This document shows positions 11,772-52,625 of a stretch of DNA of 64,000 nucleotides, one piece after another. Source of the DNA: Atractiella rhizophila (lineage: Eukaryota). The stretch's first letter is position 1. Every line of letters starts with the position of its first letter. A program made the translations under genes and the position numbers. The notes beneath the pieces were generated by a model. It was given only the letters and a program-made list of their open reading frames with translations. It ran no database searches and was not told the origin of the DNA. The stretch spans positions 10,106 to 74,105 of the forward strand of contig MU271294.1 of assembly GCA_021432655.1 (NCBI GenBank), in the 5' to 3' direction.

Positions 11772-13761
11772 ATGTCTGATCGCTTCCCCGAGAATATCGA
11801 TATGGTCGAAGCTTACCCATGCGATGATGTGCAGCCAGCTTGCTTTCTCCATCTCTTGTGCTTACCATGGATTCGTGGGGTTTGGTCCGGCATATTTTCT
11901 CTGGGAATGATGGAGAGGGGGATGGCGCAAGTTGGACAACGCGCTGATGCGCCGCAGGCATGATTTGATCTTTCCCCTTCTCTTGTCTCGTTTAACATGA
12001 ATTCGTGGCCTTCAGTCCAGCGTATCTTCTCTGCGAAGGATTGAGAAGGAAACATTGATTTCCCGTGAGGATGATCAGGGAACAGAATCGATTGCACAGT
12101 TTCATCTCATTACCGCAGGAACAGTACGACATGGCAGCCCGCTACATCTGTCCATTCTGCCCTCTTTCCTACCTCGCCTACCTCCATCAATTCACACGCT
12201 CAGGATCACGTTTGTGTTACCTATTCGATTCTGGAAGCGCAAGTATGGGCCGTCGAAATCTTCCTACTTCTCCCTGGCAAGTCTCGAAAATGAAGTCGAA
12301 CCCGACGGTACAGTGATTCTTTGCGTCGCGTTGGAGGAGGAAAGTATTGCGGTGACTTTTGGGGATCTTGTATCCGTGGATATGGATGACCTGGACGAGC
12401 CGCCCTTCACATGCACGTTTCACCTTCCAGATAATCGCTCTGAGGTCCTCTTTGAACCCGTTGCCCTATACTCCAAGGAGCAACACCGTTTCATTCCTCT
12501 CAGCGAATGGGAGAAATCAACCATCCCATCCACCGGTCTGGGGACAACCATCCAACTCTCGCTCTCCACAACTCGACCTACAGGTATTAGTCCATGCAGT
12601 ATCATGCACCTTCCTCCTGAGATCCTCTCACTCATCTTCGAGTTTCTTTCATTCCATCATTATGAGGAGGTCATACAAAGTCCTGCATATGCATATCTCG
12701 TTGACTTCGAGCGACTTTCTGCCGTCTGTCAGCTTTGGAAGGCTGTTTCAGTCCCATTTTTGAAAGATTTTGATCTTTCTATAAAGGAGAGGCTTGCTCG
12801 CTTGAAACAATATCCTCATGCCGGACGGTTGTGGAGGTTCCTCAAATTTACAGAGCTTGACGAAGACATCAGCGGTGAGATGGTGAAAGACGTCATCGCA
12901 GGCTCGCCGAATGTTACGAAGGTGTACTTGGATGCAATTTGGAATGAAGAGGAGGCGAAGATTGTGTTGCATGCGATTGAAAGCTTGACGACGTTGGATG
13001 ACGTAATGTTTGGAGGGCAAGGTTGGAGAAAGTGGAAGAAGGATGAGGTCGAGAATTTTGTGCGGAGGATGGGTGGCAGGATCAAAATCTTCGGTGCTTG
13101 TAACGTGGTGGACTCTGCCTCGTCGACGTCACCAGGGCTTCAATTATCGACTGACCTCAAAGAACTAGAGCTTCGCACATACCTGCCTCTCCCATTGCTC
13201 TCTCTCCCACTCACCCTCACATGGCTGAATCTCTACAATCTGTGTCCCCTCCCTCCCTCCATCTCAGGCTCCTGTCTGCCGCCTCTCCTCGAATATCTCA
13301 AGATCAAGCTCGCCCCCTACTTGCTCGCTGGAAAGACCTCCACCCTCCCTACTCCGCTCGACTTTTCACACCTCAAACATCTCACATGGCTCGAGCTCGA
13401 CGGTGGTGAGGAAACTTCAAACCTCGTTTCCCCCCAGTTCTTCCATACCCTCAGAAATGCAAAAGCAATAGCAACCATAGATGTTAGATACTGTGTGGTG
13501 GACTGGGCATTCACAGGGTTCGTATTCTCAGCCTTCATCTGCTGGTTCTTTGGGGACAGGGGGTTGAAGGAGGAGGGGGATACGGTGGATGGTGCTGAAA
13601 AGGTGAAGACGACGAGAAGACGCAACTTGCGCGTTCAGCTATTCTTTGGAGGGTGGCTTGAGGAAGCGATACGTACAGCCAGAAGCACGCTGAGAGAGGT
13701 TGGGGTTATCGAGGAGGATTGCGAGATATGGATTCGGGAGGGTGGAGAGGAGTGGCGCTGA
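11772..13761 (+). CDS. F-box/LRR-like protein, copy 1 (exon 1 11772-11957, alternative ATG 11922; GC-AG intron 11958-12015)
   Basis: F-box HLPPEILSLIFEFL...RLSAVCQLWKAV at ~12601, followed by LxxLxL repeats (LKELEL, LTWLNL, LEYLKI, LTWLEL). 568-codon open frame. Confidence 0.85.
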
Positions 13762-15089
13762 AGATCCTCATATTTCCCACTTGTGTTCTAGAGAAGACAC
13801 GAGAGAAAGGTGCTCAGTTCAGTTCCCTCTACATCTAATGCAACATTGAAAATGGGTGACTAGGATCAGGGGTGGAATTCATTCGGGACAATGCCATCCG
13901 TCCATCCCTCCCCGCTATTCAATGTACCGTACCTTCCAAAGCTCGCCTCCCTTGTACTCGACACCTCCCACTCAGCGGTTGCGTGGAATCTTCAAGCCCA
14001 TTCACACGCGGTCTTTCCACACACAACGTTAGAATACCATTAAGCTAAAAATCGTACCTACCCTACTGCCTGGAGTGGTTCAGTTCCGCAACATTCGTCC
14101 GTTGGCTCTGCGGGATCGTGGGATGGACTCACGAGGATGAGGAGTTGAAAATGGATGTTCAAGTTTATTTTACCCTTAACGAATGCCTGAGGAGCTGGGT
14201 TTGCGAGACAAGAGAGAGTGTGCAGTGTGAATGCTGGCAGAAATCACTGTGTGTTCTGGAGCTCAGCGGCTCGTAGGATTAGTGGGTGGTCGACTCAAAA
14301 AAGATAGAATATGAAGGTACGTCTCTTGAATCACGTTCTGTCGCTGGCATGCTGTGGCGTATATGGAAAGAAGAGTTTGAGAACTCTACACATGCAAGGA
14401 GTTTTGTATGAACGTAACGTATACTTAGCCCACGAATGGATTCTTTTCATCAAATGCCTTAAAGATTACGGAAAATGGAATTTATGGTGTCCTGATACTT
14501 GGTATCCTTCCCATCGCACTATCTGAACGGGCACAATATGTCGGATGCTGTAGACGCGACAACTGGTGAAAGCCCTTTATCCTCCATCATCTCTTCACTC
14601 CGTTAATCTAGCTTCCTCCATTTTGGTTTGCTTTCCTTCACCTCTAAGGCATACGATGCGAGAACTTCCCCTCCTTGTTAGCTCATGCCTCACCCTGAAT
14701 AGAGCATGTGCACGGCTAAAAATTCTCTCGCTCCTCCCGATTCTTATACACCGGTACTGACAGCTGTAGGTAAGTATTTCCTTTGAACCTAATGGAGAGT
14801 TGTCAAACGAGCACGGGTGTAGGATCTTGTATACCATTCCTCTCCCATGCCATTCCTCTCCTCATCCTCGCTACAAAGTGCGGCTAGCTGCACCGGCATC
14901 AAAGTGAAATACCAAGATATCCCAACAAACTTCCCATTCCTTGTCAGAGGTATGTGTTCCATCTTGTACTTGGTACCGGTCTTCTCAGGAATTCTGATAT
15001 TGTCTTCTCCAATGTGTAATGCTGAAGCTCACGCCAATATTTTTATTTTAAGGATAAAGGAGCAGGTAGGAGGGAGGTAGACGAAACGA

Positions 15090-15736
15090 AGATGGTGACG
15101 CTCAACCGAGCTTCCCTCCCATGCCTGCCACACTTTGAATGGCCACGAAGAGCGGCTCGATCAACACTTGTCTTCTGAGGAGACGGACGTCCTGTTATTA
15201 CGGCAGCAGTCGATATCGTCATACCAGATTTTCCATGAAGGTTGAGTTTCACGTCAGGAAGTTTGTTGGCACTCTGATAACAGAAAGGATAAGTCAGCAA
15301 TAGGAGGGAGGAGAGGGAGAGGCGGAGGACTTACACAGAGCTCAATCCAGCGTAGTCAGTGGGTACCACAAAGAGGAGAGAGGAGGGAGAGGAGAACTCA
15401 TGAAATGAGGATACCGGCGAACTGGACGGACGGCCACAGCTCGGACTTTCCCACCTTGCAGTCGTAACGCGTCCTATAGATCTCTCCAGGCTCATGGGCG
15501 ACGCGATATCCCTTCTTATGATGCGAGATTTTGGGTCCGAGTGCGTGCCTTGGTTTGGCCAAGCGAATTAGAGGTGGAAGAGGAGAAGGAGAAGTACCAG
15601 CGACGACTAAGCCAGCAGTTTCATGACCCAAGGCGATAGGATCTTTGACCTTGACATCTGCGGTCTTCCCATTAGCGGAAGTCGGCTCAAAGGCGCCCTT
15701 GCGTGAATCCTGCTTCCATCCGTTGATTAGTTGCAA
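15090..15736 (-). pseudogene. Zn-dependent sorbitol/xylitol dehydrogenase (MDR family) pseudogene, 5' fragment A
   Basis: VKDPIALGHETAG, KKGYRVAHEPGE..R..YDCKVGKSELWP (degenerate structural-Zn loop) and LIEPLFVAIQS. Cys ligands are lost and frames are broken. Confidence 0.75.
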
Positions 15737-18140
15737 GGGTGGACATCGGAAGGAAAGGAAGACAGGCTACTGGTGCGTCTTCCGCGTTGGGAACTCGGCG
15801 CGTCCCGAATTTGATCTGTGAAGCGAAAGGCTTTTCGGTTAGTCATCCAAAACTAACCCTGCCACTTGGCTGGCAGTCTTTCATCTCCTCCGCCTCCGCA
15901 AGCAGCCACTAGTACGCCGTCGCTGAACGTCCTCCATCGTCTCTCGATCTCCGAGTCCGCCACCCTCCCCTCTTTCTGCCTCTGAGCCACCCGTTTCTTT
16001 CATGCAGTCCCACGCCTCACATCCTCACCTCTTTGCGTCTCGCTGGTCTCCTTCACTGTTGCTGGTTCTGGCGTCACTCTCCTGTCCCAGCCTCCTTCGT
16101 CATACCCTCCGGCTCCTCTCTCCTCCAGTCCACTTTCACATCAGCTATCCTCCAAAGTCCTCTTGTGCTGATGGACCCTTCCTAGACTACGGGTGATGGA
16201 GTCGGTACGAACCGAAATACTTCGACAGCTGGTGACAGAGCAGGCATTATAGGGTAGGGAGGCGCAGGGAGGAGAGACGGTAGCGTGGTGCGCGCAAGTG
16301 ATGAATGGACATGTACAATCAGTGCGAAGAAGGGAGGGAATAAGATGCATTACCAAAAGAATGTTGCATAATGAAAGGCGAAGTGTGACGGAGATGGAGG
16401 GGCAGAGTGGTATGAGAGAAGAGGTAACAGTCTCGTCTCCTTGCATTGCGTTTCCTGACATAAGTATTAGGTTCCTCCCCCCGTCACTCTGTCCACAGTC
16501 GTCCTCAACCCTCTGCAACCGCGTCCCGCCTCAGCACTGCTCCACCCTCCGGGCGTTCTGCCTTACCTTTAGCTACCGGGGCTACGAAGGAAGAAGGCAG
16601 TTAGAGGGAAGCAGTAAGCGCCGCGCTGCACCATTCTCGATGCCTCCATCCGACCTATCCCACTTTCCCATAACCCTTGCCACACCTCTTGCCTCTCTCG
16701 CTCCGTCATTCCTCTCTCCCTACATACCCGCCAACACCCATCATCCTCCGCTCCTCCAGCAATGTTTCTGTCCTCCGTAATGAAAGCCGGGCCGAGTTGG
16801 AGGCCGCATCGCGAAAGTAGAGGACGTAGCTGACACAGCTGGTCGAGATTGAGCTTGGACATAGGAGAGGCATGATATGCTTTGTCTCACCCACGGTTGC
16901 CCTGTCGCTTCGCCTCGCTCTCTACCATCCCCACCCCCGCTTCAGCCGTCCCTCGGCTCTGAGCAACTTGCTTCACCGTAGACACGCAAGTCAACCGCGA
17001 GGCGTTGTAGAGGGGCCGTGATGGCGAAGGAGGTGGACTGTGGCTCAGATGGAGTCAGGAAGGAGGTCAGAAAAGAATTCTCTGCCAACCCATTCGCCCA
17101 CCCTTCGTGCTGCCGTCTTTCGCCGCCTCGCCTATTCTCCTGCCCTCCACTATCGCCTATTCACCCTCCACCAATTCCTTCCACCTTCTCTCGCAAAATG
17201 GTCATCTAAAATCAACCCAAAGTAAGAGAGGCACTTCAAATGGTGAAAATGGTGGACAAAGGGGACGAATTTAGTTGGCGAGCGCAGAAGGACGTGAGAA
17301 GCACCGTCCTGGCGTCTCTACTACTCCTTTTCGACCTCTGCCATCTCTTTTTGCCGCACTTACTCTCTACCCCGAGGTTCACGTTCTGCCAACCCCTCCG
17401 CCTTTCTCGCACGGTAGCCTCGTTGGGACTTCTCTTTCTCCTGGCAGTGTATTCCTTTTCTCCATCTCTTTCCTTGCTCAAGTGTCCGGACTGACATGCG
17501 CACCAGAGTCCATTACTCCGTTTTCTGCTAGTCTCACTCCACATCCTCTCGCACGGCACCACCCCTCACGCGCCCGGAAGTCGGACGTCGAAAGTGGACT
17601 TGAGGTTGGATGTCGGGTAGCAGGGAGGATATGTGACAAGAGGATGTCGGAGGGACGCGCGGCGCTTTCTTCGCACCTTTGTTCGGACTCCCTCGCCATC
17701 TCTCACCCTGCTATGCCTCTCCCGTGTTCCATGCCGCTTCTCTCTCCCACCTCATCCTGCGACTTCCATCCCGGCTCGCACTCCATGGATTACCTTCCAC
17801 TGGCGGTTGCTTCGTGACATCAAGGTCAACCATGAAATACCTGATGAAGAAAGAGGAGGGTGTTGAGGACGGTGTTGGATCATGGGCCACAAGAGGATGT
17901 TAGGTCGGCCCCCCTCTCATGCTCCTAAGCCTCTGCCCTCTGTCCCTATTGTCTCCCGCTGCTGACTCGAACATCACTTATATTCTCGCTGAGATGCAAG
18001 TGACTTCCGCTCCCGTATGCCATCCTGATTGCTAACTGCCCTCCGTACCTCTCCCAGCCCTATCTAGCCTTTCCTCGTACAATCAGATCATTACCGACGA
18101 AGCATCCATCAGAGCATTCTGCTCTGGCTCTCATTTGAAA

Positions 18141-18180
18141 TGCAGTGTGATTTAGGTACCGGTATTGCAAAGGATTTCAG
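18141..18180 (+). promoter_or_regulatory. Conserved AT-rich block (GTGTAATTTAGGTACTAGTATTGCAAAGGA consensus) ~220-260 nt upstream of the array ATGs; candidate core promoter
   Basis: Recurs at ~18141, 25043, 26288, 35055, 41686, 49326 and 50561, ahead of every unit except the divergent copy 1. Function is inferred from position only. Confidence 0.3.
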
Positions 18181-18361
18181 TTCTTTACATATTTTCGACT
18201 TCCTGTGGCACTATCTGGTAGTCCAGTGCTTGAGAACTAAACCCTTCACCGTCCGGACACCCACTGCCACCCAACACTATTCTGATGTATCCTAATCGCA
18301 ACGGTCGCCTAATCCACTGACTCCCACGAACAGTTTTGCGATCTCCATCCTCACGATCGTG

Positions 18362-20219
18362 ATGTCTGATCATTGCGCGGAGAACGTCGAGATGGTTGGA
18401 CAACGCGCGGATGCACTGCAGGCATGATATGATCTTTCCCCTTCTCTTGTCTCATCTGACATGGATTCGTGCGCTTCAGTCCCGTGCATCTCGGGGAAAC
18501 GTTGAGAAGGAACCATTGATTTCACCAAAGGATGATCAGGGAACAGAGTCTATCGCACTGGTCCATCTCATCACCCCCGTAACATTACGACATGGCACTC
18601 TGATCCACCTCTCCATTCTTCCCTCTTTCATTTCTCAGCTACCCCCATCAATTCACACACTCCGGTTCATATTTGTCTTACCCATTCGATTCTGGAGCAT
18701 CGCATTGTCAAAATTGTTCTCCTTCTCTCTGGAAGATTTCGAAAATGAAGTTGAACCCGAAGGTGCAGTGATTCTTTGCGTCGCGTTGGAGGAGGAAAGT
18801 ATTGCAGTGACTTTTGGGGATGCCAAATATCTTGCATCCGTGGATATGGATGACCTGGACGTGCAGCCCTTCACATGCACATTTCACCTCCCAGATAATC
18901 GCTCTGAGGCCATCTTCGACCCCGTCACCCTATTCTCCGTGGAGCAATACCGTTTCATTCCTCTCAGCGAATGGGAGGAATCAACCATTCCATCCACCGG
19001 TCTGGGGACAACCATCCAACTCTCATGCTCTCCGACTCGAACTACACGTATTAGTTTATGCAGCATCACACACCTTCCTCCTGAGATCCTCTCACTCATC
19101 TTCGCGTTTCTTTCATTCTATAAAACTGAAAGGCTTAGAGAAGATACTGACGATGATCTTGTTGACTTCAAGCGACTTTCTGCCGTCTGTGAGCTTTGGA
19201 AGGCTGCTTCAGTCCCATATTTCAGGGACCCTATTTCTGTGTTGAAGAAGCATGCTCGTTTGACAGCTTATCCTAATGCCGGGCATTTGTGGACATCCCT
19301 CTGGTTTGAAGACTTTGTCGGTGTCATCAACGCCGAGATGGCGAAAGACGTCGTCGCTGGCTCGCCGAATGTCACGAATGTGTACTTGGACGCAATTTGG
19401 AATGAAGAGGAGGCGGCGATTGTGTTGCATGCGATTGAAGGCTTAACGAAGTTGGATTGCATAACATTTAATGGGCGAAGTTCGAGAAAATGGAAGAAGG
19501 ATGTGGTCGAGAATTTTACGCGGAGGATGGGTGACAGGATCAGAGCCTTCGGTGCCCGTAACGTGGAGGACTCTGCCTCGTCGCCATCACTAGGCCTTCA
19601 ATTATCATCTAACCTCAACTCCCTAGAGCTTCACACATACCCGCCTGTCCCAACGCTGTCTCTCCCACACACCCTCATACGGTTGCATCTCTCCAATCTG
19701 TGTCCCCTCCCTCCCTCCGTCTCAGGCTCCTGTCTGCCGCCTCTTCTAGAATTTCTCAAGATCAAGCTTGTCCCCTACTCGCTGGATGGAAAGACCTCCA
19801 TCCTACCCAGTCCACTCGACCTATCAGACCTCAAACATCTCAGCTACCTTGAACTGGACGGTGGTGAGGAAACTTCAAACCTTGTTTCCCCCCAGCTCTT
19901 CCAAACCCTCAGAAATGCAAAAGCGATAAAGTACATAGGTGTTCGGTACTGTGTGGTGGACTGGGGATTCACAGGGTTCGTATTCTCAGATTTCATCTGC
20001 TGGTTCTTTGGGGACAGGGGGGTGAAGGAGGAGGCGGATACGGAGGATGGAGCTGAAAAGGTGAAGACGACAAGAGGACGCCGGTTGGAGGTTCAGCTAT
20101 TCTTTGGAGGGTGGCTTGAGGAAGCGATACGTGCAGCTAGAAGCACGTTGAGAGAGTTTGGGGTTATCGAGGGGGATCACACGATATGGATTCGGGAGGG
20201 TGGAGAGGAGCGGCGCTGA
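18362..20219 (+). CDS. F-box/LRR-like protein, copy 2 (exon 1 18362-18421; GC-AG intron 18422-18479)
   Basis: Same architecture: HLPPEILSLIFAFL...RLSAVCELWKAA plus LRR-like repeats. Intact frame. Confidence 0.85.
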
Positions 20220-20325
20220 AGATCCTCATATTTCCCACTTGTGTTCTAAAGGAGACATTCAGAGGAAGGTGCGATGTTCATAACACTCCAGGCTCTAACG
20301 CAGCATTGACAAGGACAGGCAGGAG

Positions 20326-20661
20326 TTGATAGCGGAGCCAGGCTGTGGCGTTCACGCCGCACAGCCCACGTTAGGGACGATTCCCTTATCCGTTCAACTT
20401 GACAAACACTCAACAAAGCCAGCGTCCCTTGTCCTGACCGATTGTGATGAATCTTCGGGCCTAATTCGTACCAGTCTTCTGTGCACACTGTTGACATCCG
20501 ATGCGATTAAAGGCATAGCTATGTCGTACTGCGTGGAGGGAGTCGGTTGCCCAATGTTTATCTGCTGGTTCTTGGGGATCAGGAAACGAGGGATACGGCG
20601 CCTTGACGGCAATGGATGGGACGGAGTAGAGTTGCTGGTCGATGATTATTTCAGTCCTTGA
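20326..20661 (+). pseudogene. Relic duplicate of the F-box/LRR C-terminal region (best-preserved example)
   Basis: SLVLTDCDESSGLIRTSLLCTLLTSDAIKGIAMSYCV...FICWFLG aligns with YLELDGGEETSNLVSPQLFQTLRNAKAIKYIGVRYCV...FICWFFG of the upstream gene. Confidence 0.65.
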
Positions 20662-25029: not shown

Positions 25030-25324
25030 CTCTCGTTCGAAATGCAGTGTAATTTAGGTACTAGTATTGCAAAGGATTTCAGTTCAATTACATATTTTAT
25101 GATGTCCTGTGGCACTATCTGGTAGTCAAGTGCTAGAGAACTAAAGCCTTCAACGTCCGGACTTCCACTTCTTCCACCCAACACCATCCTAATCTGACCT
25201 AGTTGCAAACGGTTGCCTAATCCGCCGACTCTCACGAGCAGTTTTGCCATCCATCTTCACGATTGTGACGTCTGATCCTCGCATGGAGAACGTCGAGATG
25301 GCTGAACAACACGCACTGCAGGCA
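25030..25324 (+). pseudogene. Aborted array unit: promoter block plus exon 1 only, gene body deleted
   Basis: The upstream motif and gagaacgtcgagatggctgaacaac...ctgcaggca are present, then the sequence jumps into spacer sequence. Confidence 0.65.
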
Positions 25325-41905: not shown

Positions 41906-43767
41906 ATGTCTGATCATTGCGCGGAGAACATCGAGATGGTTGGACAACTCGCGGATGAGCTGCAGGCATGATATGATCTTTTCCCTTCTCTTTGTCCGTT
42001 TAACATGAATTCGTGGTCTTAGTCCAGCATGTTATCTCCCAGAATGAAAGAAAGAACATTGATTTCACAGGAGGATGATCATGGAACACAGTCAATCGCA
42101 CGGGTCCCACGGGTCCATCTCATCACCGCAGTAACCCTACGACATGGCAGTCTGCTACATCTATCCATTCTTCCCTCTTTCCTTTCTCGCCTACCTGCAT
42201 CAACTCACATGCTCCGGATCACATTTGTCTTGCCTCTTGAATTCTGGAGCGAGGATTATGGGCCATCGAAATCATCCTACTTCTCTTGGCAGGTCTCGGA
42301 AATGAAGTCGAACCCGACGGTACAGCGATTCTTTGCATCGCGTTGGAGGAGGAAAGTATTGCGGTGACTTTCGAGGATGCCAAATATCTTGCATCCGTGG
42401 ATATGGATGACCTGGACGTGCTGCCCTTCACATGCACATTTCACCTTCCAGATAATCGCTCTGAGGCCATCTTCGACCCCGTCGCCATATACTCCGGGGA
42501 GCAACAGTGTTTCATTCCTCTCAGCGAATGGGAGGAATCAACCATCCCATCCACCGGTCTAGGGACCACCATCCAACTCTCGCTCTCCCCACCGCAAGTT
42601 CCAGGGATAAGTCCCTGCACAATCACAAAGCTACCTCCTGAGACCCTCTCTCTCGTCTTCGATTTCCTTTCATTCAACGAAAATCGAGAGCTCATCGAAG
42701 GTGGTGAGGAACTCCTCATTTCCTTCGAGCGACTCTCTGCCGTCTGTCAGCTTTGGAAGGCTGTTTCAGTCCCATATTTGAGTGAATATGTTTCTATGAA
42801 GGAGATGCATGCTCGTTTGACAGCTTATCCTAATGCTGGGTATTTGTGGAGATCCCTATGGTTTAAGGAGGACTATGATGTCAGCGTTGAGATGGCGAAA
42901 GACATCATCGCTGGCTCGCCGAACGTTACGGACATGTACATGGATGCATTTTGGAATGAAGAGGAGGCGAAGATTGTGTTGCATGCGATTGAAAGCTTGA
43001 CGAAGTTGGGTTCTGTAGCCTTTGGAGGGGAAGGTTCGAGAAAGTGGAAGAAGGCTGAGGTCGAGAATATCATGTGGAGGATGGGTGACAGGATCAGATT
43101 CTTCTATGCTTACGATGTGGAGGACTCTGCCTCGTCGACATCACCAGGCCTTCAATTATCATCTGACCTCGATAGCTTAGAGCTTCACACATACCCGCCT
43201 CTCCCATCGCTCTCTCTCCCACACACCCTCACATGGCTGAATCTCTCCAATCTGTGTCCCCTCCCTCCCTCCGTCTCAAGCTCCTGTCTACCGCCTCTTC
43301 TAGATCATCTCAAGGTCACGCTCGCCCCCTACTCGCCTGATGGAAAGATCTCCATCCTCGCCAAACCGCTCAACCTATCACACCTCAAACGTCTCACATA
43401 CCTCGAACTCGACGGTGGTGAGGAAACTTCAAACCTCGTTTCCCCCCAGTTCTTCCACACCCTCACAAATGCAAAAGCGATAAGACACATAGATGTTCGG
43501 TACTGTGTGGTGCACTGGCAATTCACAGGGTTCGTATTCTCAGATTTCATCTGCTGGTTCTTTGGGGCCAGGGGGGTGAAGGAGGAGGGGGATACGGTGG
43601 ATGGAGCTGAAAAGGTGAAGACGACGAGAGGACGCCGGTTGAGGATTGCGCTATTCTTTGGAGGGTGGCTTGAGGAAGAGATATGCAAGGCTAGGAGCGC
43701 ACTGAAAGAGTTTGGTGTGAGCGACGAGAATGAATACATATGGGTTAAGGAGGGTGGGGAGGAGTGA
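41906..43767 (+). pseudogene. F-box/LRR-like copy 5, frameshifted (1-nt deletion at ~42287); GC-AG intron 41966-42022
   Basis: TTCTCTTGGCAGG here vs TTCTCTCTGGCAGG in copy 4 splits the gene into ORFs 42029-42367 and 42286-43767. Otherwise intact, so a sequencing error is possible. Confidence 0.75.
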
Positions 43768-44439
43768 TGTTGGAGATACTCAGATTTCACTCGTTCCAGA
43801 GAAGATACGAGAAGAAGGTGCGTGGTTCGAATCCCTCTCCATCGAACACAGCATTGAAATGGGTGACAGGAACAGGGCTGGACTTCGTTCGGGACAATGC
43901 CATCCTTCCATCCGTTCCCCACACTGCACCTCATAAAGGTCACCTCCCTCGTGCTCGATGGTTATCAGCAATCTTACAACCCCGGCTGCACCGAGTCTGT
44001 CCTGGTAAAGGTCATAGTTATTTCGTACCGCGTGGAGTGAGTCAGTCTCCCAGTGTTTATTTGTGGGTTCACGATGGATGGGAAGAAGTAGAATTGCTGT
44101 TGATGATTATTTCATTTCCTTGAGGAAGCTTCAGGGCATGGGAGACCGGGTTTCTGAGGAGGACGCTAGCTATGTGTATTACGGATGTCTTTTCTCATGC
44201 AAACAATTCTACTGATTCCCTGTAAAAGCGCCGAAGACATCAAGTTCCGTCCAAAATGTGCCACAATGTAAAAAAGCCCTTCACATTTTGAGTCCTGCCT
44301 GAGTTGTTCTTACGGTTGACGACGACTTGTGCATTCGATGATGGAGGGGGTCTTTATCGCGTCCTCCTCATCCTCTCTCTTCACGTCCTAGGGCGAACCA
44401 TCGTCATTAGGTTTCAACTTTGTGACATTAAGGCAGCAG

Positions 44440-45520
44440 AGAAGAGAGTTGGCAAGTCTTTATTGTCTTAAAGATGCGAATTGCATCCCTGAACTTGAGG
44501 CGATGTGTGATGAGCGGCTCAGCAGTCTACGAGGGCCGCTAGCGAACAAATCATTTGCTTACTCATAACACTCGCTCTGTATTCATCGAGCAAATCAATA
44601 ACTACGAAGCGTCAGAACAACATTATAGTGCAAAACGTAGGAGGGAGGACTGAACTGAAAGAACCTTGAGGGTCACCTCTTTCGTGAGGATAGCAGTGAC
44701 GGGCGCCTGGAACGAACTCGGTGCCCATTCCCACTTAGACGCATGTTCCGCCATCCTTGACAAGTTAGACGGTCTGAATGCACGCCTGTTCTCGGAACGG
44801 AAACGTCAGACAGGACGCGCATGAGAGAGGTTAGAGGTCGACACACGTTTGGGAGGAACAAAAGTCTCCAACCTCACGTACTTGTTTGCGAAAGCTAGCC
44901 TACGCTCCTAAATATCGACAACTTTATCCTTCAACTACCAAACGGTTTCGTGACTGCCTGTGCGAGTAGCACTCTTGGATCGGCTATTCACAACACAAGT
45001 TGGTGCGTATTGCGTTTTTATTCGAAGGGTATAAGAGAAAGGTAGGGAGATAAACCCGACGAAGGTAAAGTTCAACCTTCAACTTTGCTTTCATACTCCG
45101 ATACGTGTTAGGCTTTGAAGGATCACGGAGAGCGGTTCGATCATGGAACCCTTCATCTACGGAGACGTTCTGTTATCACACCTGCAGTCCGTTATACGAC
45201 ATATTTGGCGAGAGTAGGGGACCTGGAACGTACATCGGGAAATCTGTAGGCTCTGTCATAACGGACCAGATAAGTCAGCGTTTGGAGAGCGGAGGGGTAT
45301 TGTAAAATAATATACAAGTCTTGCCATAGTCTGTAGTCTCGCAGCGAGCGCCCTGCCAACCAATCAAGTCAGCACGAAGTTGTGTACCACGAAAAGGAGA
45401 GAGAAGGAAGAGGGAAAGTTCACGGAAGGAAAAGTAGCGGGGAATTCGATGAAGGGACAGAGCTCGCACCTTCCCGCATTGGATTCGTAGCACATCCTAC
45501 ATGACTCTCCGCACTCGAGG
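44440..45520 (-). pseudogene. Sorbitol/xylitol dehydrogenase pseudogene F (paralog of C, internally deleted)
   Basis: ECGESCRMCYESNAGRCELCPFIEFPAT and a degenerate GMG motif. Region 44900-45560 resembles 29880-30520. Confidence 0.7.
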
Positions 45521-45639
45521 TGGATACGGTCTCCTCGAAACTCACCTCAACTCTCTGCCCGTATATACATGGCACATGAAGGAGCGGTAACATACCGCCT
45601 AAGACACACGAGCGCCTACTCCCGGCTCACAAAATGTTG

Positions 45640-46770
45640 TGCTGGGATGTCGAGGTTGGAACGGGGAACGAGACCTATTCTCCTGGTCCACACCTCCCGT
45701 AATGTCTACAGGGAGGTCGATACCCTCCAATCCGTAGTATGCAACCTTGAACTCCTCTTCATGATCCTCGCGGTCGTCCTCGAGTACGCTATCCTCTGCT
45801 CTCCCTCCTTCGCAAAACCACAAACGCAAAAACACGACGGTCAAAAAGAAAAGGAAACATGAGACAAGTCATGCATAAGAGACGTTAGAGTTGGACGCAC
45901 GTTTGGGGAGCATGAACTTCGATCCCACGCCTTTGTTCGCCAAAGTGATCCTACCACTCTTGAATCTCGACGGCGATTATCGTTCTAGCGGCAAAGGCCT
46001 TCGCCACCGCCTGTGCGACGGTTCCTACAGATCAGCTCTTCACAACACCGTTAGTATTGTTTTCTTTTACCGGTGGAGGAGGAGAAGGGCGAGGAAGATG
46101 GACCCGCAGATGGCGACGTTCAGCCCAGCTTTCATCCATTGATACGTCCCAGGCTTTGAACAGCCACGGAGAGCGGTTCGACCATCGCTCATTCTTCTAG
46201 GAAACGTTCCGTCCAGTCGGTGTTGTTTTACAAGATAATCCCTGCCAGCAGGGAATCGAAAGCACATCCGGAAGTGTAGGCGCTTCCACTGCACACATGA
46301 TAAGTCAAAGTTGGCGATTGGAGAGAGGAATAGACGGGAGGGACAGATCGTACAGGTCGCCTTGGAGCTTGTAGACCCGCGGAGAGTTTCGTCCTGCCAT
46401 CCAATGAGTTAGAACCCAAACATGTACCACAGAAGGAAGAGGAATACTCACGAAAGGCGGGGTCACGACGAACTTGATGGAAGGGCATAGCTCATACCTT
46501 CCCGCCTTGCAGTCATGACATGTCCTAAGAGTCTCTCTCTGGGCGCAAATGCGACGCGATCTCCCTTCTTGAGTGATGACTTTGTGTCAAACGATGTTCA
46601 TTTTCTTTAGCAAGCGAGACGAGAGAGGAGAGGTGGAGACGTACCAGCAGCGACTATTGCAGTTTCGTGACTCTAGACGATGCTGTAGGATCTTGATAAT
46701 GGCATCTGCGATCTTGCCCATGCACAGACATTGGTACCACAGATGTTGTTGCGTGGATCCTGCATCCATT
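45640..46770 (-). pseudogene. Sorbitol/xylitol dehydrogenase pseudogene G (5' two-thirds)
   Basis: GKIADAIIK and KKGDRVAFAP, then a frameshift to RTCHDCKAGRYELCPSIKFVVTPP, the clearest structural-Zn loop among the remnants. Confidence 0.8.
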
Positions 46771-47602
46771 CTTTTGCAAGTCGAACATAGGAAAGAAAGG
46801 AAGACTGAGTGGTGTCTCGTGAGATCCTTGCTTGCGCATCATTGGGAACGCGGCGCGTCGCGAATTTGACCCGTGAAAGCGAATTTTCGGTCATCAGAAA
46901 TGGCCTAACTGCTCCAGCTCCTCACCAGCTCCTTTATCTCTTCCCCCCGCCGCAAGCCGTCACTAGTACACCGTCTCCGAACATCCTCCATCGGCTTTCG
47001 ATCTCCGTGTCCGCCGCCCTTCCCGCTTTCTCGGTCTGAGCTAGCCGTTTCTTTCATCAGCCCCATGCCTCACCTCGCTTGCGTCTCGCTGGTCTCCTTC
47101 ACTGTGGATAGTGCTGGTGTCCCTCTCCTGTCCCAGCCTCCTTCGGCATCCCCTCCGGCTCCTCTCCCCTCCACACTCCTCTTTCCGAGTCACCTCAGGC
47201 TGTCCTCCACCGTCCTCTGTTGCAGATGTGCCGTTCCTAGACTACGGGTGATGAAGGTGGTACGAACCGAAATACTTGGAGAGCTGGTGACAGAGCAGGC
47301 TCGACAGGGGGGGGGCGCAGGGAGTGGAGACGGTAGCGAGGGTGTGCGCAAGTGATGAATGGACAAGTGCAATTAGCGCGAAGAAGGGAAGAAGGGAAGG
47401 AATAAGATGCATTGCCAACAGAATGTTGCATAGTGGAAGGCGAAGTGTGACAAAGATCGAAGGGACAGAGTGGTACAAGAGAAGAGGTGACCGTCTCGTC
47501 CCCTCTCCCTCTGTTTGCATTTGCGTTTACTGACATAGGTATTAGGTTTCTCTCCCGTCACCCTAGTAGCCATCGCCCCCTCTCCCCCTGCAACTCCGTC
47601 GC

Positions 47603-47810
47603 NNNNNNNNNNNNNNNNNNNNNNNNNNNNNNNNNNNNNNNNNNNNNNNNNNNNNNNNNNNNNNNNNNNNNNNNNNNNNNNNNNNNNNNNNNNNNNNNNN
47701 NNNNNNNNNNNNNNNNNNNNNNNNNNNNNNNNNNNNNNNNNNNNNNNNNNNNNNNNNNNNNNNNNNNNNNNNNNNNNNNNNNNNNNNNNNNNNNNNNNNN
47801 NNNNNNNNNN
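47603..47810. other. Assembly gap (208 N)
   Basis: Run of N within repeated spacer sequence. Confidence 1.
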
Positions 47811-49309
47811 CCACTCCCTATAATCCTCGCCACGACTCTCGCCTCTCTCGCTCCAGCATCCCTCTCCCCACACCTGCCCCTGCCAACATCCATCATCCTC
47901 CGCTCCTCCAGCAACCTTTCTGTCCTCCTTAATGAAAGCCGGGCCGAGTTGGCGGCCGCATCGCGAAAGTAGAGGACGTAGCTGACACAGCTGGTCGAGA
48001 TTGAGCCTGGACATCGGAGAAGCATGGTATGCTTTCTCTCACCCACAGTGGCCCTCTCGTTTCCGCGCTCTCTGACATCCCCAAGCCCGTTTTAGCCCTC
48101 TCTCGACTCTAGGGAACTTGCTTCACCGTAGACATCGCAATTCAACCGCGAAGCGTAGTAAGGCGCGTGATGGCGAAGGAGGTGGATTGTGGTTCAGATG
48201 GAGTCAGGAAGGAGGTCAGAAAAGAAGTCTCTGCCAACCCATTCGCCCATCCCACTCGAGCCGCCGTCTTTCGCCGCCTCACCCTTCTCTGGCCCTTCAC
48301 TATTGGCTATTCCCCCCTCCACCAATCCTTCCACCTTCTCTCGCAAAATGGGCATCTAAAATCAACCCAAAGCATGAGAGTCACATCAAATGGTGAAAAT
48401 GGTGGACAGAGGGGACGAATTCGGTCGGTGATCGCAGAAGGACGTGAGAAGGACCGTTGCGGCGTCTCTTCTACTCCTTTTCGACCTCTGCCATCTCTCT
48501 TTGCTGCACTTAGCCTCTGCGCCAAGGTTCGCCTGTCATTTCGCATTCCGCCAACCCCTCTGCCTTTTTCGCACGCTAGCCTCGTTGGGGCTTTCCTTTC
48601 TGCTGGCAGTGTATTCCCTTTCTCCCTCTCTTTCCTTGCCGCAAGTGCCCTAACTGACATGCGCACTAGGCCCATACCTCCGTTTTCTGCTCTTCTCACT
48701 CCACGTCCTTTCGCACTCCACTGTCGCTCATGGGCTGCATCAAGCCATGAGCGCTCGGAAGTCAGACGTCGAACGTGGACTTGAGGTTGAATGTCGAATA
48801 GCAGGGAGGGCAGATGTGACAAGGGGATGTCAGATGGCCGCGTCGCACTTTCTTCACACTTCTGTTCGGACTCCCTCGCCATCTCTCACCCTGCTATGCC
48901 TCTCCCATGTTCCATGCCGCTTCTCTCTCCCACCTCATCCTGCGTCTTCCATCCCACTCCGGCTCGCACTCCATGGATTACCTTCCACTGGCGCTTGCTT
49001 CGTGACACCAAGGTCAACAATGAAATACCTGATGAAGAAAGAGGAGTGCAATGGGGACAGTGTTGGATCATGGGCCACAAGAGAATGTCTAGGTCGGCCG
49101 CTCTCTCATGCTCCTAAACGTCTGCCCTCTGACCCTCTTGTCTCCCACTCCTGACTCGAACATCACCTATATTCTCGCTGAGATGCAAGTGACTTCCGCT
49201 CCGTCTGCCATCCTGTTGCTAACTGCCCTATCTCTCCCAGCCCTATCTAGCCTTTCCTCTTACAATCAGATCATTACCGATGAAGCATCAATATCAGAGC
49301 ATTCTGCTC

Positions 49310-49911
49310 TGGCTCTCATTTGAATTGCATTGTAATTTAGGTACTAGTATTGCAAACGATTTCTTACATATGTGACCTCCTGTGGCACTATCTGGTAGTC
49401 AAATGCTTGAGAACTAAACCTTCACTGTCCGGACCCCACTTCCACCCAACACCATTCTGATCTGTCCTAATCGCAACGGTCGCCTAATCCATCGACTCCC
49501 ACGAACAGTTTTGCGATCTCCATCCTCACGATCGTGGTGTCTGATCATCGCGCCGAGCGAGAAATGGCTGGACAACATGCTGATGCGAGACGCTCTTCTC
49601 CCTTCTCTTTGTCCGTTTAACATGAATTCGTGGTCTTTAGTCCAGCATGTTATCTCGCAGAATGATTTCACAGGCGGATGATCAGGGAACAGAGTCAATC
49701 GCACAGGTCCATCTCATCACCCCAGTAAGGCCACGACATGGCAGTCTGCTTCATCTATCCATTCTTCCCTCTTTCCTTTCTCGCCTACCTCCGTCAATTC
49801 ACACGCTCCGGATCACATTTGTCTCATCCCTTCGATTCTGGAGGTTCAATTATGGGGCCGCGACATCATCGAACTTCTCCCTGGCAGGTCTCCAAAATGA
49901 AGTCGAACCAG
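49310..49911 (+). pseudogene. Aborted F-box/LRR unit: promoter plus N-terminal ~88 codons, then deletion into spacer
   Basis: ORF 49647 matches paralogs up to SLAGLQNEVEP, then switches to spacer sequence homologous to ~34402 (cagtcccactccacctcc). The GC donor is also lost. Confidence 0.75.
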
Positions 49912-50803
49912 TCCCACTCCACCTCCTATCGCACTCCACCGGCCCACCCGCCTCCACCAAGCCCGTGGCTCAGAAGTTGGACTCGGAGTGGAGGTTGAAC
50001 GTTCGAAAGCGAAAGGGGGAGGAAGAAGTGATAACGAGTCCATAGTCAAGATGGGATGTCGGAGATACGCATCACACTTTGTCTCGTCGTTACGTTCGCA
50101 CTCCCTTGCCATCCCTCGTCATCCTATGCCTTCCTCGTGTCCCCATGCCGCCGTCCTACTCCCTCTCCCACCCCATCCCCTCCTTCTGTTGCACTCTGGC
50201 TTGCACTTCATGGCTCCTTTTCCACCGACGCTTGCTTCATGACATTGAGGGCAACAACGAAATGGCTGATGGAGAAAGAGGAGGGCAAAGTGTGCAGTGT
50301 TGCATCAGGGACCACAAGTGGACATCTAGGTTGGCCCTTCCTCATGCTCCTGAGCCTCCTCCTCCATCCCTCTTGTCTCCCGCTAATGACTCAAGTGTCA
50401 TCTATGTTCTCGCAAATTGTTTCTTCTGCCTCCTCTGTCATCCAGATAGGCAACTGCCGTCCATAACTGTCCCCGCCTATCTAGCCTTCCTTCTCACAAT
50501 CAGATCATTACGGGATGAAGCATCAATATCAGAGCGTTCTGCACTAGCTCTCGTTTGATTTGCAGTGTAATTTAGGTACTATATTGCAAAGGACTTTTAC
50601 ATATTTTAGGACTTCCTGTAGCACTATCTAGTAGTCAAGTGCTAGAGAACTAAAGCCTTCAACGTCCGGACGCCAACTTCCACCAACACCATCCTAATCC
50701 GTCCTAATTGCAACGATCGCCTAATCCATCGACTCCCACGAACAGTTCCGGGATCTCCATCCTCACGATTGTGCTGTCTGATCATTGCCCCGAGAACGTC
50801 GAG

Positions 50804-52625
50804 ATGGCTGAACAACGCGCTGATGTGCTGCAGGCATGATATGATCTTTCCCCTGCCCTTGCCTCGTTTAACATGAATTCGTGGGCTTCAGTTCAGCGTA
50901 TCTTCTCTACGAAGGATTGAGAAGGAAACATTGATTTCACGGGAGGATGATCAGGGAACAGAGTCTATCGCACTGGTCCATCTCATCACCCCAGCAGAAT
51001 TAACATATGGCACTCCGATCTACCTCTCCATTCTTCCCTCTTTCCTTTCTCGCCTACCTCCATCAATTCACATTCTCCGGATCACATTTGTTTTGCCTCT
51101 TGACGTCTGGATGGAGGATTATGGGCCGTCGAAATCATCCTACTTCTCCGTGGCAGGTCTCGAAAATGAAGTCGAACCAGACGGTGCAGTGATTCTTTGG
51201 ATTGGTTCGGAGGAGGAAAGTATTACGGTAGCTTTTGGTGATACCAAACGTTGTGCATCCGTTGAATTTGAGGGCCTGTATCGGAAGCCCTTCACATGCA
51301 CTTTTCATCTTCCAGATAATCGCTCTCAGGTCCTCTTTGAACCCGTTGCCCTATACTCCAAGGAGCAACTGCGTTTCATTCCTCTCAGCGAATGGGAGGA
51401 ATCAACCATCCCATCCACCGGTCTGGGGACAACCATCCAACTCTCGCTCTCCACAACTCAACTTACAGGTATTAGTCCATGCAGTATGACGCACCTTCCT
51501 CCTGAGATCCTCTCACTCATCTTCGAGTTTCTTTCATTCGATGAAGATCAAAGCCTCATAGCTGGTCTTGGATATCTCGTTTCCTTCGAGCGACTTTCTG
51601 ACGTCTGTCAGCTTTGGAAGGCTGTTTCAGTCCCATATTTCAGTAAACATGTCCCTCTGAGGGAGTTACACGCTCGTTTGACAGCTAATCCTAATGCCGG
51701 GCATTTGCGGACATCCCTCTCATTTGGTGGAGGTGGCATCAGCGTTGAGACGGCCAAAGACGTCATCGCGGGGTCGCCAAATGTGACGGAGGTGTGGATG
51801 GATGCATTGTGGAATGAAGAGGAGGCGAAGATTGTGTTGCATGCGATTGAAAGCTTGAGGAAGTTGGATTACATATGCTTTAAAGGGGAAAGTTCGAGAA
51901 AGTGGAAGAAGGACGAGGTTGAGAATTTTATGTTGAGGATGGGTGACAGGATCAGTTTCTTCGGTGCTTATGACGTGGAGGACTCTGTCTCGTCGCCATC
52001 ACTAGGCCTTCGATTATCATCTAGCCTCAACTCCCTAGAGCTTCACACATACCCACCTCTCCCATCGCTCTCCCTCCCACTCACCCTCACGTCATTGGGT
52101 CTCTCCAATCTGTGTCCCCTTCCTCCCTCCATCTCAGGCTCCTGTCTACCCCCTCTTCTAGATTGGCTCAAGATCACCCTTGCCCCCTACTCGCCTGATG
52201 GAAAGACCTCCATCCTACCCAGTCCATTCGACTTTTCACACCTCAAACATCTCACTAACCTCTACCTCGACGGCGGTGAGGAAACTTCAAACCTCGTTTC
52301 CCCCCAAGTCTTCCACACCCTCAGAAATGCAAAAGGGATAGCAGAAATAGATGTTCGGTACTGTGTGGTGGACTGGGAATTCACAGGGTTCGTATTCTCA
52401 GACTTCATCTGCTGGTTCTTTGGGGACAGGGGGGTGAAGGAGGAGGGGGATAAGGAGGATGGAGCTGAAAAGGTGAAGTCGACGAGAGGACGCGAGTTGA
52501 GGGTTCAGCTATTCTTTGGAGGGTGGCTTGAGGACGAGATACGCAAGGCTAGGAGCACGTTGAGTGAGTTTGAGGTTATCGAGGGGGGTTGGAAGATATG
52601 GATTCGGGAGGGTGGAGAGGAGTGA
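50804..52625 (+). CDS. F-box/LRR-like protein, copy 6 (exon 1 50804-50833; GC-AG intron 50834-50891)
   Basis: HLPPEILSLIFEFL...RLSDVCQLWKAV plus LRR-like repeats. Intact frame. Confidence 0.85.

What the first reader, a model, noticed from the sequence alone, without database searches (positions are those of the whole stretch)
11772..52625. Tandem F-box/LRR array whose variation is concentrated at exposed LRR strand positions: candidate diversifying recognition (immune-like) system
Seen: linkers and scaffold are almost invariant in all six copies (LCPLPP..SGS/SSSCLPPLL, LDGGEETS.LVSPQ, WN.EEA.IVL.AIE). The x positions of each xxLxLxx strand vary. Copies 1-6 read RFLKF/TSLWF/TALRF/TSLWF/RSLWF/TSLSF; DDVMF/DCITF/DDVEF/DSVTF/GSVAF/DYICF; KIFGAC/RAFGAR/RTFRAE/RFFRPH/RFFYAY/SFFGAY; TWLNLY/IRLHLS/TYLHLF/TDLYLS/TWLNLS/TSLGLS; EYLKIK/EFLKIK/EDLAIT/SYLDIT/DHLKVT/DWLKIT; TWLEL/SYLEL/TRLYL/TRLHL/TYLEL/TNLYL; ATIDV/KYIGV/LTINV/RHIDV/RHIDV/AEIDV. 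Many changes need several substitutions within a codon set in near-identical DNA. Known: these positions form the concave ligand-binding face of LRRs, and the same pattern marks plant NLRs, lamprey VLRs and the unstable F-box families of nematodes and plants. Inference: this is a repertoire of SCF adaptors targeting variable foreign or selfish proteins for ubiquitination, or alternatively host-directed effectors.
Basis: partly seen in the sequence, partly recalled or inferred. Interest (0 to 1): 0.88.

Follow-up and report, generated by a model that had tools for sequence, protein, structure and literature searches.

The report
Fast-diversifying fungal F-box/LRR gene array
Six tandem copies of a gene found only in the root fungus Atractiella rhizophila encode probable ubiquitin-ligase adaptors whose predicted binding face changes faster than neutral DNA, which fits a repertoire of shifting target specificities, but the targets are unknown.

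Summary
The array is real. Six head-to-tail paralogs lie at 12.0-52.6 kb. One has a 1-nt frameshift, and there is also a seventh N-terminal fragment. Each encodes a beta-rich N-terminal domain, an F-box-like motif, nine LRRs and a C-terminal tail. All 64 database relatives come from Atractiella rhizophila. The DNA is not near-identical: nucleotide identity is 80-86% and dS is 0.22-0.29.

My own codon site models favour positive selection. M2a against M1a gives 2dlnL 146.7, and 137.4 with eight segment-specific trees. Twelve recombinant null simulations gave 0-12.7. About 6-9% of codons have omega near 7-8.

Within the LRR domain the selected sites sit almost only in the AlphaFold-predicted strands (19 of 71 against 2 of 158 positions). 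They fall at x3 and x5 of LxxLxLxx, which are rich in Tyr, His, Trp and Arg. Thirty-nine paralogs elsewhere in the genome show the same pattern. However, 10 of the 19 strongest sites lie outside the LRR domain.

Skp1 binding, the targets and any immune role are untested. This is a new fungal member of a kind known from nematode and plant F-box families. The scan had already noted this family on two other pieces of this genome.

The parts
12001..13761 (+). Copy 1, main exon, intact ORF. F-box motif at 12601-12771, LRR domain at 12817-13500. Equals most of public model P0010.
18363..20219 (+). Copy 2, intact ORF. F-box at 19065-19232, LRR at 19275-19958. Run X1 contigs show an alternative 52-nt GT..AG skip at 19976-20027 that would truncate the C-terminus, and a spliced 54-nt skip just after the stop codon (20268-20321).
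26629..28380 (+). Copy 3, intact ORF with an in-frame ATG about 10 codons before the conserved DDQG. F-box at 27226-27396, LRR at 27439-28125.
35401..37137 (+). Copy 4, intact ORF with an in-frame ATG. F-box at 35998-36147, LRR at 36190-36876. The search with this copy as query returned no identical protein (best identity 80%).
42023..43767 (+). Copy 5. The N-terminal part (42023-42364) is in another frame than the rest (42241-43767). A 1-nt deletion near 42287, relative to copies 3, 4 and 6, causes the shift. This is a pseudogene, an N-terminally shortened protein or an assembly error. F-box at 42622-42789, LRR at 42832-43512.
50804..52625 (+). Copy 6, equal to public model P0007. It has a mini-exon at 50804-50824 (MAEQRAD), a GT..AG intron and a main exon from 50892. 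F-box at 51486-51650, LRR at 51693-52370.
49641..50042 (+). Seventh copy, fragment only. It holds about 90 N-terminal residues and then loses similarity.
13762..50803 (.). Repeated spacers between the copies (4.5-7 kb each). The region given also contains copies 2-5. The spacers share 70-90% identity between units and have no long ORF with a Pfam match at E<=0.001. The two spacers that were laid (11800-28500) are covered by spliced contigs with both intron orientations. A weak ADH_N-like fragment lies at 15401-15766 (-).

Best explanation
This is one tandem array of a large gene family, restricted to Atractiella rhizophila, that encodes F-box/LRR proteins. They most likely act as substrate receptors of SCF (Skp1-cullin-F-box) ubiquitin ligases.

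Each protein has four parts: a conserved beta-rich N-terminal domain of unknown fold, an F-box motif, nine leucine-rich repeats and a conserved C-terminal tail.

Proposed mechanism:
1. The F-box docks the protein on Skp1 (inferred, not tested).
2. The concave beta-sheet of the LRR solenoid binds a protein target (inferred from the fold).
3. The outward-facing strand residues x3 and x5 set the specificity. These positions are under diversifying selection (shown by codon models).
4. New specificities arise by tandem duplication and by exchange of segments between copies. Discordant segment trees show the exchange.

This pattern fits targets that themselves change, such as non-self, viral, transposon or other selfish proteins. 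That last step is inference only.
For: Family and range:
- All 64 hits come from Atractiella rhizophila. A profile search of 1.84 billion representatives gives 103 hits at E<=0.001, and the one second-tier hit that I checked (P0091) is from the same species.

F-box:
- PF12937 matches all six window copies at 15-24.1 bits, below the 24.3 cut-off. It matches 30 of 42 family members at E<=0.01, best 5.8e-9.
- L209, P210, E212 and W249 are invariant, and V245 and C246 are at least 90% conserved, in 42 paralogs.
- The profile hits to PDB sequences are weak (E from 0.0077 to 0.7) and are limited to F-box motifs of FBH1, Skp2, FBXL17, Fbw7 and FBXO42.

LRR:
- The AlphaFold model has pLDDT above 90 over most of residues 290-450, with nine regularly spaced strands.
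- The best structural matches are FBXL2-SKP1 (6o60_C: Z 16.4, rmsd 3.8 A, 277 aligned), then RanGAP, FBXL17, Rad7 and Skp2. Foldseek puts COI1 and TIR1 on top.

Selection:
- M1a against M2a gives 2dlnL 146.7, M7 against M8 gives 151.6 and M8a against M8 gives 146.3. About 8.7% of codons have omega 6.8.
- With eight segment-specific trees the value is 137.4, with 6.3% of codons at omega 8.4.
- Twelve null simulations with recombination gave 0-12.7.
- For the LRR domain alone the LRT is 76.3.
- Selected sites fall in the strands.
- With the register defined beforehand, dN/dS at x3/x5 is 1.64 and 12 of 15 pairs have pN>pS. The ratio is 0.17 at the L positions and 0.45 in the rest of the LRR domain.
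- pS at the neighbouring L codons (0.21) is not raised. The hypervariability is therefore specific to single codons and is not caused by patches converted from divergent paralogs.
- x3/x5 are enriched in Tyr (3.9-fold), His (2.4), Trp (2.3) and Arg (2.25).
- The pattern repeats in 15 close and 24 distant paralogs from outside the window. In the close set, entropy is 2.61 at x3 and 2.18 at x5, against 0.26-0.42 at the L positions.

Exchange between copies:
- In 11 of 12 comparisons a segment rejects another segment's tree at AU p<0.05.

Transcription:
- Contigs of run X1 show canonical intron-sized skips inside and just after copy 2.
Against:
- All six window copies score below Pfam's curated F-box cut-off.
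- The F-box carries a hypervariable insertion with low model confidence (residues 219-237) between its first two helices.
- No Pfam LRR model matches.
- The selection models are my own code, run on only six sequences. They were checked by a null simulation only.
- The sites called in the F-box insertion lie next to indels, where the alignment is uncertain.
- The N-terminal signal (LRT 15.1) is barely above the null range.
- About half or more of all codons fall in the omega=1 class: 0.55 with the single tree and 0.64 with partitioned trees. Much of the protein therefore evolves almost neutrally.
- One copy is frameshifted.
- pS is also raised at the x codons (0.38 against 0.18). I attribute this to multi-step path counting but did not prove it.
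- No target, induction data or population data exist.
Confidence: 0.6

Rival explanations
1. These are ordinary regulatory F-box receptors for the fungus's own proteins. Tandem duplicates were pushed by selection to new endogenous substrates, for example in development, as has been proposed for the large F-box expansions of mushroom-forming fungi. No conflict or non-self role is involved.
For: Passages of the preprint 10.1101/349894 report 67-1,199 F-box genes in Agaricomycetes. These arose mostly by recent tandem duplication, and many are developmentally regulated. Passages of PMC10282164 call fungal F-box proteins fast-evolving. Nothing in the window links the array to a foreign target. Its neighbours are housekeeping genes.
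Against: Omega of 7-8 sustained at the same 15-20 surface positions in every copy, and high entropy at the same positions in 39 other paralogs, is more typical of an ongoing arms race than of a few shifts to new stable substrates. The family has no detectable relative outside one species.
Confidence: 0.2
2. These are LRR binding proteins that no longer work through SCF. The F-box is a relic that no longer binds Skp1, and the proteins act by binding or sequestering partners.
For: The window copies score below the curated F-box cut-off. A hypervariable insertion of about 10-17 residues lies inside the F-box, and the model confidence is low there. An extra N-terminal domain precedes the F-box, which is unusual.
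Against: The core F-box residues (LP.E..L..F and VC..W) are invariant or at least 90% conserved in 42 paralogs, while neighbouring residues vary freely. This indicates purifying selection on the motif.
Confidence: 0.1
3. The pattern reflects relaxed constraint or genomic drift. The copies are decaying duplicates, and the variable positions are merely unconstrained surface residues.
For: Whole-gene omega is 0.57-0.77. About half or more of the codons fall in the omega=1 class. One of the six copies is frameshifted and one more is a fragment.
Against: Neutral models are rejected by 2dlnL 137-152, against at most 12.7 in null simulations. Five ORFs of about 580 codons stay open at dS of about 0.25. 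The composition at x3/x5 is biased towards Tyr, His, Trp and Arg and is not average.
Confidence: 0.06
4. These are effectors delivered into the plant host that hijack its SCF machinery, as bacterial F-box effectors do.
For: The fungus is recorded as a root-associated species (name lines; literature listing). F-box/LRR effectors of bacteria appear among the structural neighbours, for example RipG4 with Z 11.9.
Against: The annotated N-terminus of P0007 (MAEQRADFSVSSLRR...) and the ATG-started copies 3 and 4 (MKRRKTS...) are charged rather than hydrophobic, so no signal peptide is apparent (read by eye). RipG4 is no better a match than dozens of other LRR proteins.
Confidence: 0.04

Closest known systems
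FBXL-type F-box/LRR substrate receptors of SCF ligases (FBXL2, FBXL17, Skp2; plant COI1, TIR1, D3)
   Same: An F-box motif is followed by an LRR solenoid with helices on the convex side. The best structural matches are FBXL2 6o60_C (Z 16.4), FBXL17 6w66_B (Z 16.1) and Skp2 1fqv_A (Z 13.2). Foldseek ranks COI1 and TIR1 on top.
   Different: Sequence identity is 7-12%, and no Pfam LRR model matches. A beta-rich domain of about 170 residues precedes the F-box; its best PDB match has Z of only 3.8. The F-box carries a hypervariable insertion. The family is restricted to one species and is amplified in tandem.
Expanded, unstable F-box families of Caenorhabditis and plants
   Same: [quoted passage not shown] Passages of PMC8120010 state this for C. 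elegans paralogs, citing Thomas 2006.
   Different: In nematodes the variable domains are mostly FTH or FBA rather than LRR (PMC8120010 passages). Here the selected sites follow the LRR strand register, and the organism is a fungus.
F-box expansions of mushroom-forming fungi (Agaricomycetes)
   Same: These are fungal F-box genes multiplied by recent tandem duplication and described as fast-evolving (10.1101/349894 passages; PMC10282164 passages).
   Different: Those papers interpret the expansions as developmental regulation. In the passages I read they report no site-level selection on an LRR surface. The present fungus belongs to another subphylum (Pucciniomycotina; this placement is recalled and was not looked up).
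Hypervariable xxLxLxx positions of plant NLR/R-gene LRRs and lamprey or hagfish VLRs
   Same: Variation and dN/dS>1 concentrate on the solvent-facing residues of the LRR strands, and the genes evolve by duplication and sequence exchange. NLR and VLR LRR domains are among the structural neighbours, for example NOD2 with Z 13.8 and VLR 2o6q with Z 12.5. That hypervariability in those families sits at the x positions is recalled and was not checked in a paper here.
   Different: There is no NB-ARC or NACHT domain and no somatic assembly. The attached module is an F-box, so the implied output is ubiquitination rather than oligomerisation or signalling.

Membership tests
F-box proteins (SCF substrate receptors) | Recognisable F-box motif (Pfam PF12937 / PF00646) | tested here: met
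   The motif is met at family level. 30 of 42 members match PF12937 and 8 of 42 match PF00646 at E<=0.01, best 5.8e-9. The six window copies match at E 3e-5 to 0.022 (15-24.1 bits), all below the 24.3-bit curated cut-off. The core residues LP.E and W are invariant in 42 paralogs. All 7 profile hits against PDB sequences (E 0.0077-0.7) are F-box motifs.
F-box proteins (SCF substrate receptors) | Three-helix F-box fold | tested here: inconclusive
   The model has helices at 211-221, 239-253 and 263-272. pLDDT is below 50 at 219-237 and 252-258.
F-box proteins (SCF substrate receptors) | Binding to Skp1 and assembly with cullin-1 | not testable with these tools
No complex prediction was run.
FBXL subfamily (F-box + LRR) | LRR solenoid C-terminal to the F-box | tested here: met
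   There are nine strands with the register LxxLxLxx. pLDDT is above 90 over most of residues 290-450. VIA Z is 16.4 to FBXL2, with rmsd 3.8 A over 277 residues.
FBXL subfamily (F-box + LRR) | Match to a sequence model of LRRs (Pfam LRR families) | tested here: not met
   No LRR family matches at E<=1 in any of the six copies, and none is among the families matched by the 42 members at E<=0.01. The repeats are irregular, with 20-31 residues from strand to strand.
Diversifying F-box families (nematode/plant type) | Lineage-specific tandem expansion | tested here: met
The window holds six copies plus a fragment.
Diversifying F-box families (nematode/plant type) | Positive selection in the substrate-binding domain | tested here: met
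   For the LRR domain alone, M1a against M2a gives LRT 76.3 with 11% of codons at omega 6.8. dN/dS at x3/x5 is 1.64. The code is my own and only six sequences were used.
Innate-immune or allorecognition receptor repertoires | A demonstrated non-self or pathogen-derived ligand, or induction on challenge | not testable with these tools
   No ligand, challenge or population data were within reach.

The most novel reading that the evidence does not exclude
The fungus may run an intracellular, germline-encoded recognition repertoire built on ubiquitin-ligase receptors. Dozens of F-box/LRR proteins with individually different binding faces would tag changing non-self or selfish proteins for degradation. 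Candidates include proteins of mycoviruses and retrotransposons, and incompatible nuclei or partners. This would be an LRR-based counterpart in fungi to NLR-type repertoires.
Probability: 0.25. Interest if true: 0.85.

Novelty: new member of a known kind. Interest (0 to 1): 0.55.

Why it matters
Tandemly expanded F-box families with positive selection in the substrate-binding domain are described for nematodes and plants. Large F-box expansions are known in mushroom-forming fungi, but there they have been read as developmental regulators.

This array gives a clean case in a fungus where the selected residues can be named, position by position, on a predicted binding face. That makes the question of what these expanded fungal F-box families recognise directly testable. 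Suitable tests are substrate trapping, swaps of the x3/x5 residues between copies, and comparison between isolates.

My searches found no paper that describes site-level diversifying selection on a fungal F-box/LRR family. This holds only for the library searched.

Tried and rejected
- Whole genome of the window: none is held. Codon analysis was therefore limited to the six copies in the window.
I checked the origin of one second-tier hit (P0091) with a homology search instead. The other second-tier hits remain unnamed.
- The look-up of sequencing runs listed no holder on record as RNA. The one run listed (X1, kind unknown) was laid and shows intron-like skips.
- The skip after copy 1's stop codon has only 25 letters on its shorter side, so I do not count it.
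- N-terminal domain: there is no Pfam family at E<=0.001. The feature search of the ESM Atlas scored at most 0.79, which is chance level. The domain folded alone had pLDDT 65, and the best PDB match had Z 3.8 to generic Ig/FN3-like sandwiches. The fold remains unassigned, which does not show that it is new.
- Foldseek on the whole model gave no hit at E<=0.001 (best 1.1e-3, COI1).
- Counting over all five x positions (45 codons) gives dN/dS of 0.90, not above 1. Only x3/x5 exceed 1.
- The test of runs of shared polymorphic sites found only 1 of 15 pairs globally significant (c2-c5, p 0.044).
- Spacer ORFs: no Pfam match at E<=0.001. The spliced minus-strand transcript at 21.3-23.3 kb has no ORF above 122 codons.
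- RIP-like hypermutation as the source of divergence was considered and set aside. Kappa is only 2.1-2.7 and the ORFs stay open.
- No Skp1 complex prediction was run, for lack of a Skp1 sequence.

Full report
**1. What is there**

The window has about 50% G+C and looks eukaryotic. It holds six long + strand ORFs of 508-618 codons, measured stop to stop, at 12001-13761, 18363-20219, 26629-28380, 35401-37137, 42241-43767 and 50877-52625. They lie in direct repeat units of 6.4-8.9 kb. The repeats also include 4.5-7 kb of spacer, and the units are 70-90% identical to one another.

The six proteins are 71-74% identical to copy 1. A seventh copy, at 49641-50042, is an N-terminal fragment only.

Copy 5 reads its first 90 or so codons in another frame. 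An alignment with copies 3, 4 and 6 shows a single missing base near 42287.

Copy 6 equals the public model P0007, which starts in a seven-codon mini-exon (50804-50824) followed by a GT..AG intron. The mini-exon is conserved upstream of all copies. Only copy 6 has GT directly after it. Copies 3, 4 and 5 have an in-frame ATG inside the main exon instead. The 5' ends therefore remain unsettled.

The flanks hold an alpha/beta-hydrolase gene, an ACBP-like fragment, an Mgm101-like fragment, a Copia-type retrotransposon (53479-58860, minus strand) and a cyclin gene.

**2. Whose gene it is**

A homology search with copy 4 returned 64 proteins, all from Atractiella rhizophila and named hypothetical. 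Four of them are products of this window: P0007, P0010, P0016 and P0017. No identical match to copy 4 came back (best identity 80%), so that copy seems to lack a public model in the length range searched.

For example, six are on the contig of 82,413 bases and five each on those of 100,918 and 112,534 bases. The family therefore forms several arrays.

A profile of 42 members, searched against 1.84 billion representative proteins, found only 103 hits at E<=0.001 and 72 at E<=1e-10. The one second-tier hit that I could check (P0091) is again from the same species. The weakest hits match the F-box stretch only.

The scan had already noted this family on two other pieces of the same genome (e1-7573709 and e1-7588581).

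**3. Domains**

*F-box.* Pfam finds an F-box-like motif at about residues 200-250 in all six copies. Each hit is below the curated cut-off, at 15-24.1 bits against 24.3. Across the family, 30 of 42 members match PF12937 and 8 of 42 match PF00646 at E<=0.01. The core residues LP.E and W are invariant and VC is at least 90% conserved. All 7 profile hits to PDB sequences are F-box motifs, though weak, with E from 0.0077 to 0.7.

*LRR domain.* No Pfam LRR model matches. The AlphaFold model of P0007 (mean pLDDT 71; above 90 over most of residues 290-450) shows nine regularly spaced short strands between residues 282 and 498, with helices between them. In a search of 48,161 PDB representatives, the best matches are:
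- FBXL2 in its SKP1 complex (Z 16.4, rmsd 3.8 A, 277 residues aligned);
- RanGAP (Z 16.2);
- FBXL17 (Z 16.1);
- Rad7 (Z 15.4);
- Skp2 (Z 13.2).

These are followed by many other LRR proteins. Foldseek puts COI1 and TIR1 on top, at a weak E of 1e-3. Scores among LRR proteins lie close together, so the fold class is secure but the subfamily is not.

*N-terminal domain.* The 170 residues before the F-box form a beta-rich domain. Folded alone it gave pLDDT 65 and no PDB match above Z 3.8. Pfam and the ESM Atlas gave nothing useful.

**4. Is the variation at the strand positions real and non-random?**

In each of the nine repeats the conserved aliphatic residues define the register L1-x2-x3-L4-x5-L6-x7-x8.

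I built a codon alignment of 593 columns and wrote GY94/F3x4 site models.

With a single tree:
- M0 omega is 0.87.
- M1a against M2a gives 2dlnL 146.7.
- M7 against M8 gives 151.6.
- M8a against M8 gives 146.3.
- 8.7% of codons have omega 6.8.

The copies exchange segments. Segment trees differ, and in 11 of 12 comparisons a segment rejects another segment's tree at AU p<0.05. I therefore repeated the test with eight segments, each with its own tree. The result was 2dlnL 137.4, with 6.3% of codons at omega 8.4.

Twelve data sets simulated under the neutral model with those eight trees, and analysed with one tree, gave LRTs of 0-12.7. Recombination does inflate the test, but not nearly to the observed value.

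Site counts:
- 19 sites have posterior above 0.95 with the single tree, and 16 with partitioned trees.
- In the 229-column LRR domain, sites with posterior above 0.5 number 19 of 71 in the strand windows against 2 of 158 outside (Fisher 4e-9).
- With partitioned trees the counts are 15 of 71 against 0 of 158.

A test that does not choose sites by their variability uses the 18 x3/x5 codons fixed by the register:
- dN/dS at x3/x5 is 1.64, and 12 of 15 pairs have pN>pS.
- dN/dS is 0.17 at the L positions.
- dN/dS is 0.45 in the rest of the LRR domain.
- 0 of 5000 random codon sets reach the observed pN.

Taking all five x positions gives only 0.90.

pS is not raised at the L codons that sit between the x codons (0.21 against 0.18). 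The effect is therefore precise to single codons and is not due to imported divergent patches. pS within the x codons is raised (0.38). I attribute this to path counting in codons with multiple hits, but did not prove it.

All 18 x3/x5 codons vary at two or more codon positions. Across 42 family members these positions are enriched in Tyr, His, Trp and Arg.

The pattern repeats in paralogs from outside the window. In 15 close paralogs, mean entropy is 2.61 bits at x3 and 2.18 at x5, against 0.26-0.42 at the L positions and 0.59 off the strands. It holds likewise in 24 distant paralogs.

**5.

- The DNA is not near-identical: dS is 0.216-0.290 and dN is 0.135-0.192.
- About half or more of the codons fall in the omega=1 class: 0.55 with the single tree and 0.64 with partitioned trees. 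The scaffold is conserved in motifs, not throughout.
- Ten of the 19 strongest sites lie outside the LRR domain: columns 42, 136 and 203 in the N-terminal part; 226, 228 and 235 in an indel-rich insertion inside the F-box; and 509, 548, 580 and 581 in the C-terminal part.
- By region, the LRTs are 76.3 for the LRR domain, 42.0 for the C-terminal part, 22.1 for the F-box plus linker and 15.1 for the N-terminal domain. The last value is near the null range. The F-box sites sit where the alignment is uncertain.
- Column 548 is the first residue of a further predicted strand (P0007 residues 542-547). It may extend the same sheet, which is inference.

**6. Transcription**

No run on record as RNA was listed. 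The one holder, X1 (kind unknown, kept as contigs), was laid on 11800-28500.

Of the 15 joints listed:
- 12 are 46-83-nt skips with GT..AG or CT..AC ends;
- one is GC..AG.

I read this as RNA origin, which is inference.

Two well-supported joints concern copy 2:
- a GT..AG skip just after its stop codon (20268-20321, 48 letters on the shorter side);
- a 52-nt GT..AG skip inside the ORF (19976-20027), which would end the protein soon after the last LRR.

A CT..AC skip at 19590-19640 suggests an antisense spliced transcript.

**7. Reading**

The best-supported reading is a species-restricted, tandemly amplified family of probable SCF substrate receptors whose LRR strand face is under diversifying selection.

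- Shown here: the array, the family range in the databases, the F-box motif at family level, the LRR fold (predicted), omega>1 at strand positions, and exchange between copies.
- Inferred: Skp1 binding, protein targets on the concave face, and a conflict or immune-like role.

The main rival is an ordinary expansion towards endogenous substrates, as proposed for mushroom-forming fungi (10.1101/349894, passages read; PMC10282164, passages read).

Purifying selection on the F-box together with positive selection on the substrate-binding domain among paralogs is established for C. elegans (PMC8120010, passages read, citing Thomas 2006).

My literature searches found no account of this family, nor of site-level selection on a fungal F-box/LRR surface. 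No supplements were read.

Noticed in passing
window 19976-20027 (+), copy 2: A contig of run X1 skips 52 nt with GT..AG ends inside the ORF. The spliced form would end the protein 11 codons after the junction and drop the conserved C-terminal part of about 80 residues. This may be an alternative isoform.
   Followed up: partly
window 19590-19640, inside copy 2's LRR region: A contig of run X1 skips 51 nt with CT..AC ends. This suggests a spliced antisense transcript across the coding region.
   Followed up: no
window 13809-13862 and 20268-20321: Skips of 54 nt with GT..AG ends lie directly after the stop codons of copies 1 and 2, so an intron in the 3' UTR seems conserved. The copy 1 joint has only 25 letters on its shorter side.
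   Followed up: partly
window 14.6-14.9 kb and 21.2-25.0 kb (spacers): The repeated spacers carry several intron-sized skips with canonical ends in both orientations, but no ORF above about 120 codons after splicing. These may be non-coding transcripts or decayed genes duplicated with each unit. A weak ADH_N-like fragment (E 0.0026, below the cut-off) lies at 15401-15766 (-).
   Followed up: partly
window 12070-12600 and the homologous parts of the other copies (P0007 residues 30-205): A conserved beta-rich domain of about 170 residues precedes the F-box. It has no Pfam match, and its best structural match has Z of only 3.8. Its fold and role are unassigned.
   Followed up: yes
window 53479-58860 (-): A Copia-type retrotransposon with long open gag and pol frames (RVT_2, SH3_retrovirus, gag_pre-integrs, Pol_BBD) sits between the last F-box copy and a cyclin gene (about 58232-60316, +).
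   Followed up: partly
window 26629-28380 and 35401-37137 (copies 3 and 4): The homology search with copy 4 returned no identical protein, and no listed hit was recognised as copy 3. These two intact copies may lack public gene models. Copies 2 and 5 appear only as N-terminally shortened predictions without a public source (P0017, P0016).
   Followed up: partly
window 47603-47810: A run of 208 N, an assembly gap, lies in the spacer before the seventh fragment.
   Followed up: no
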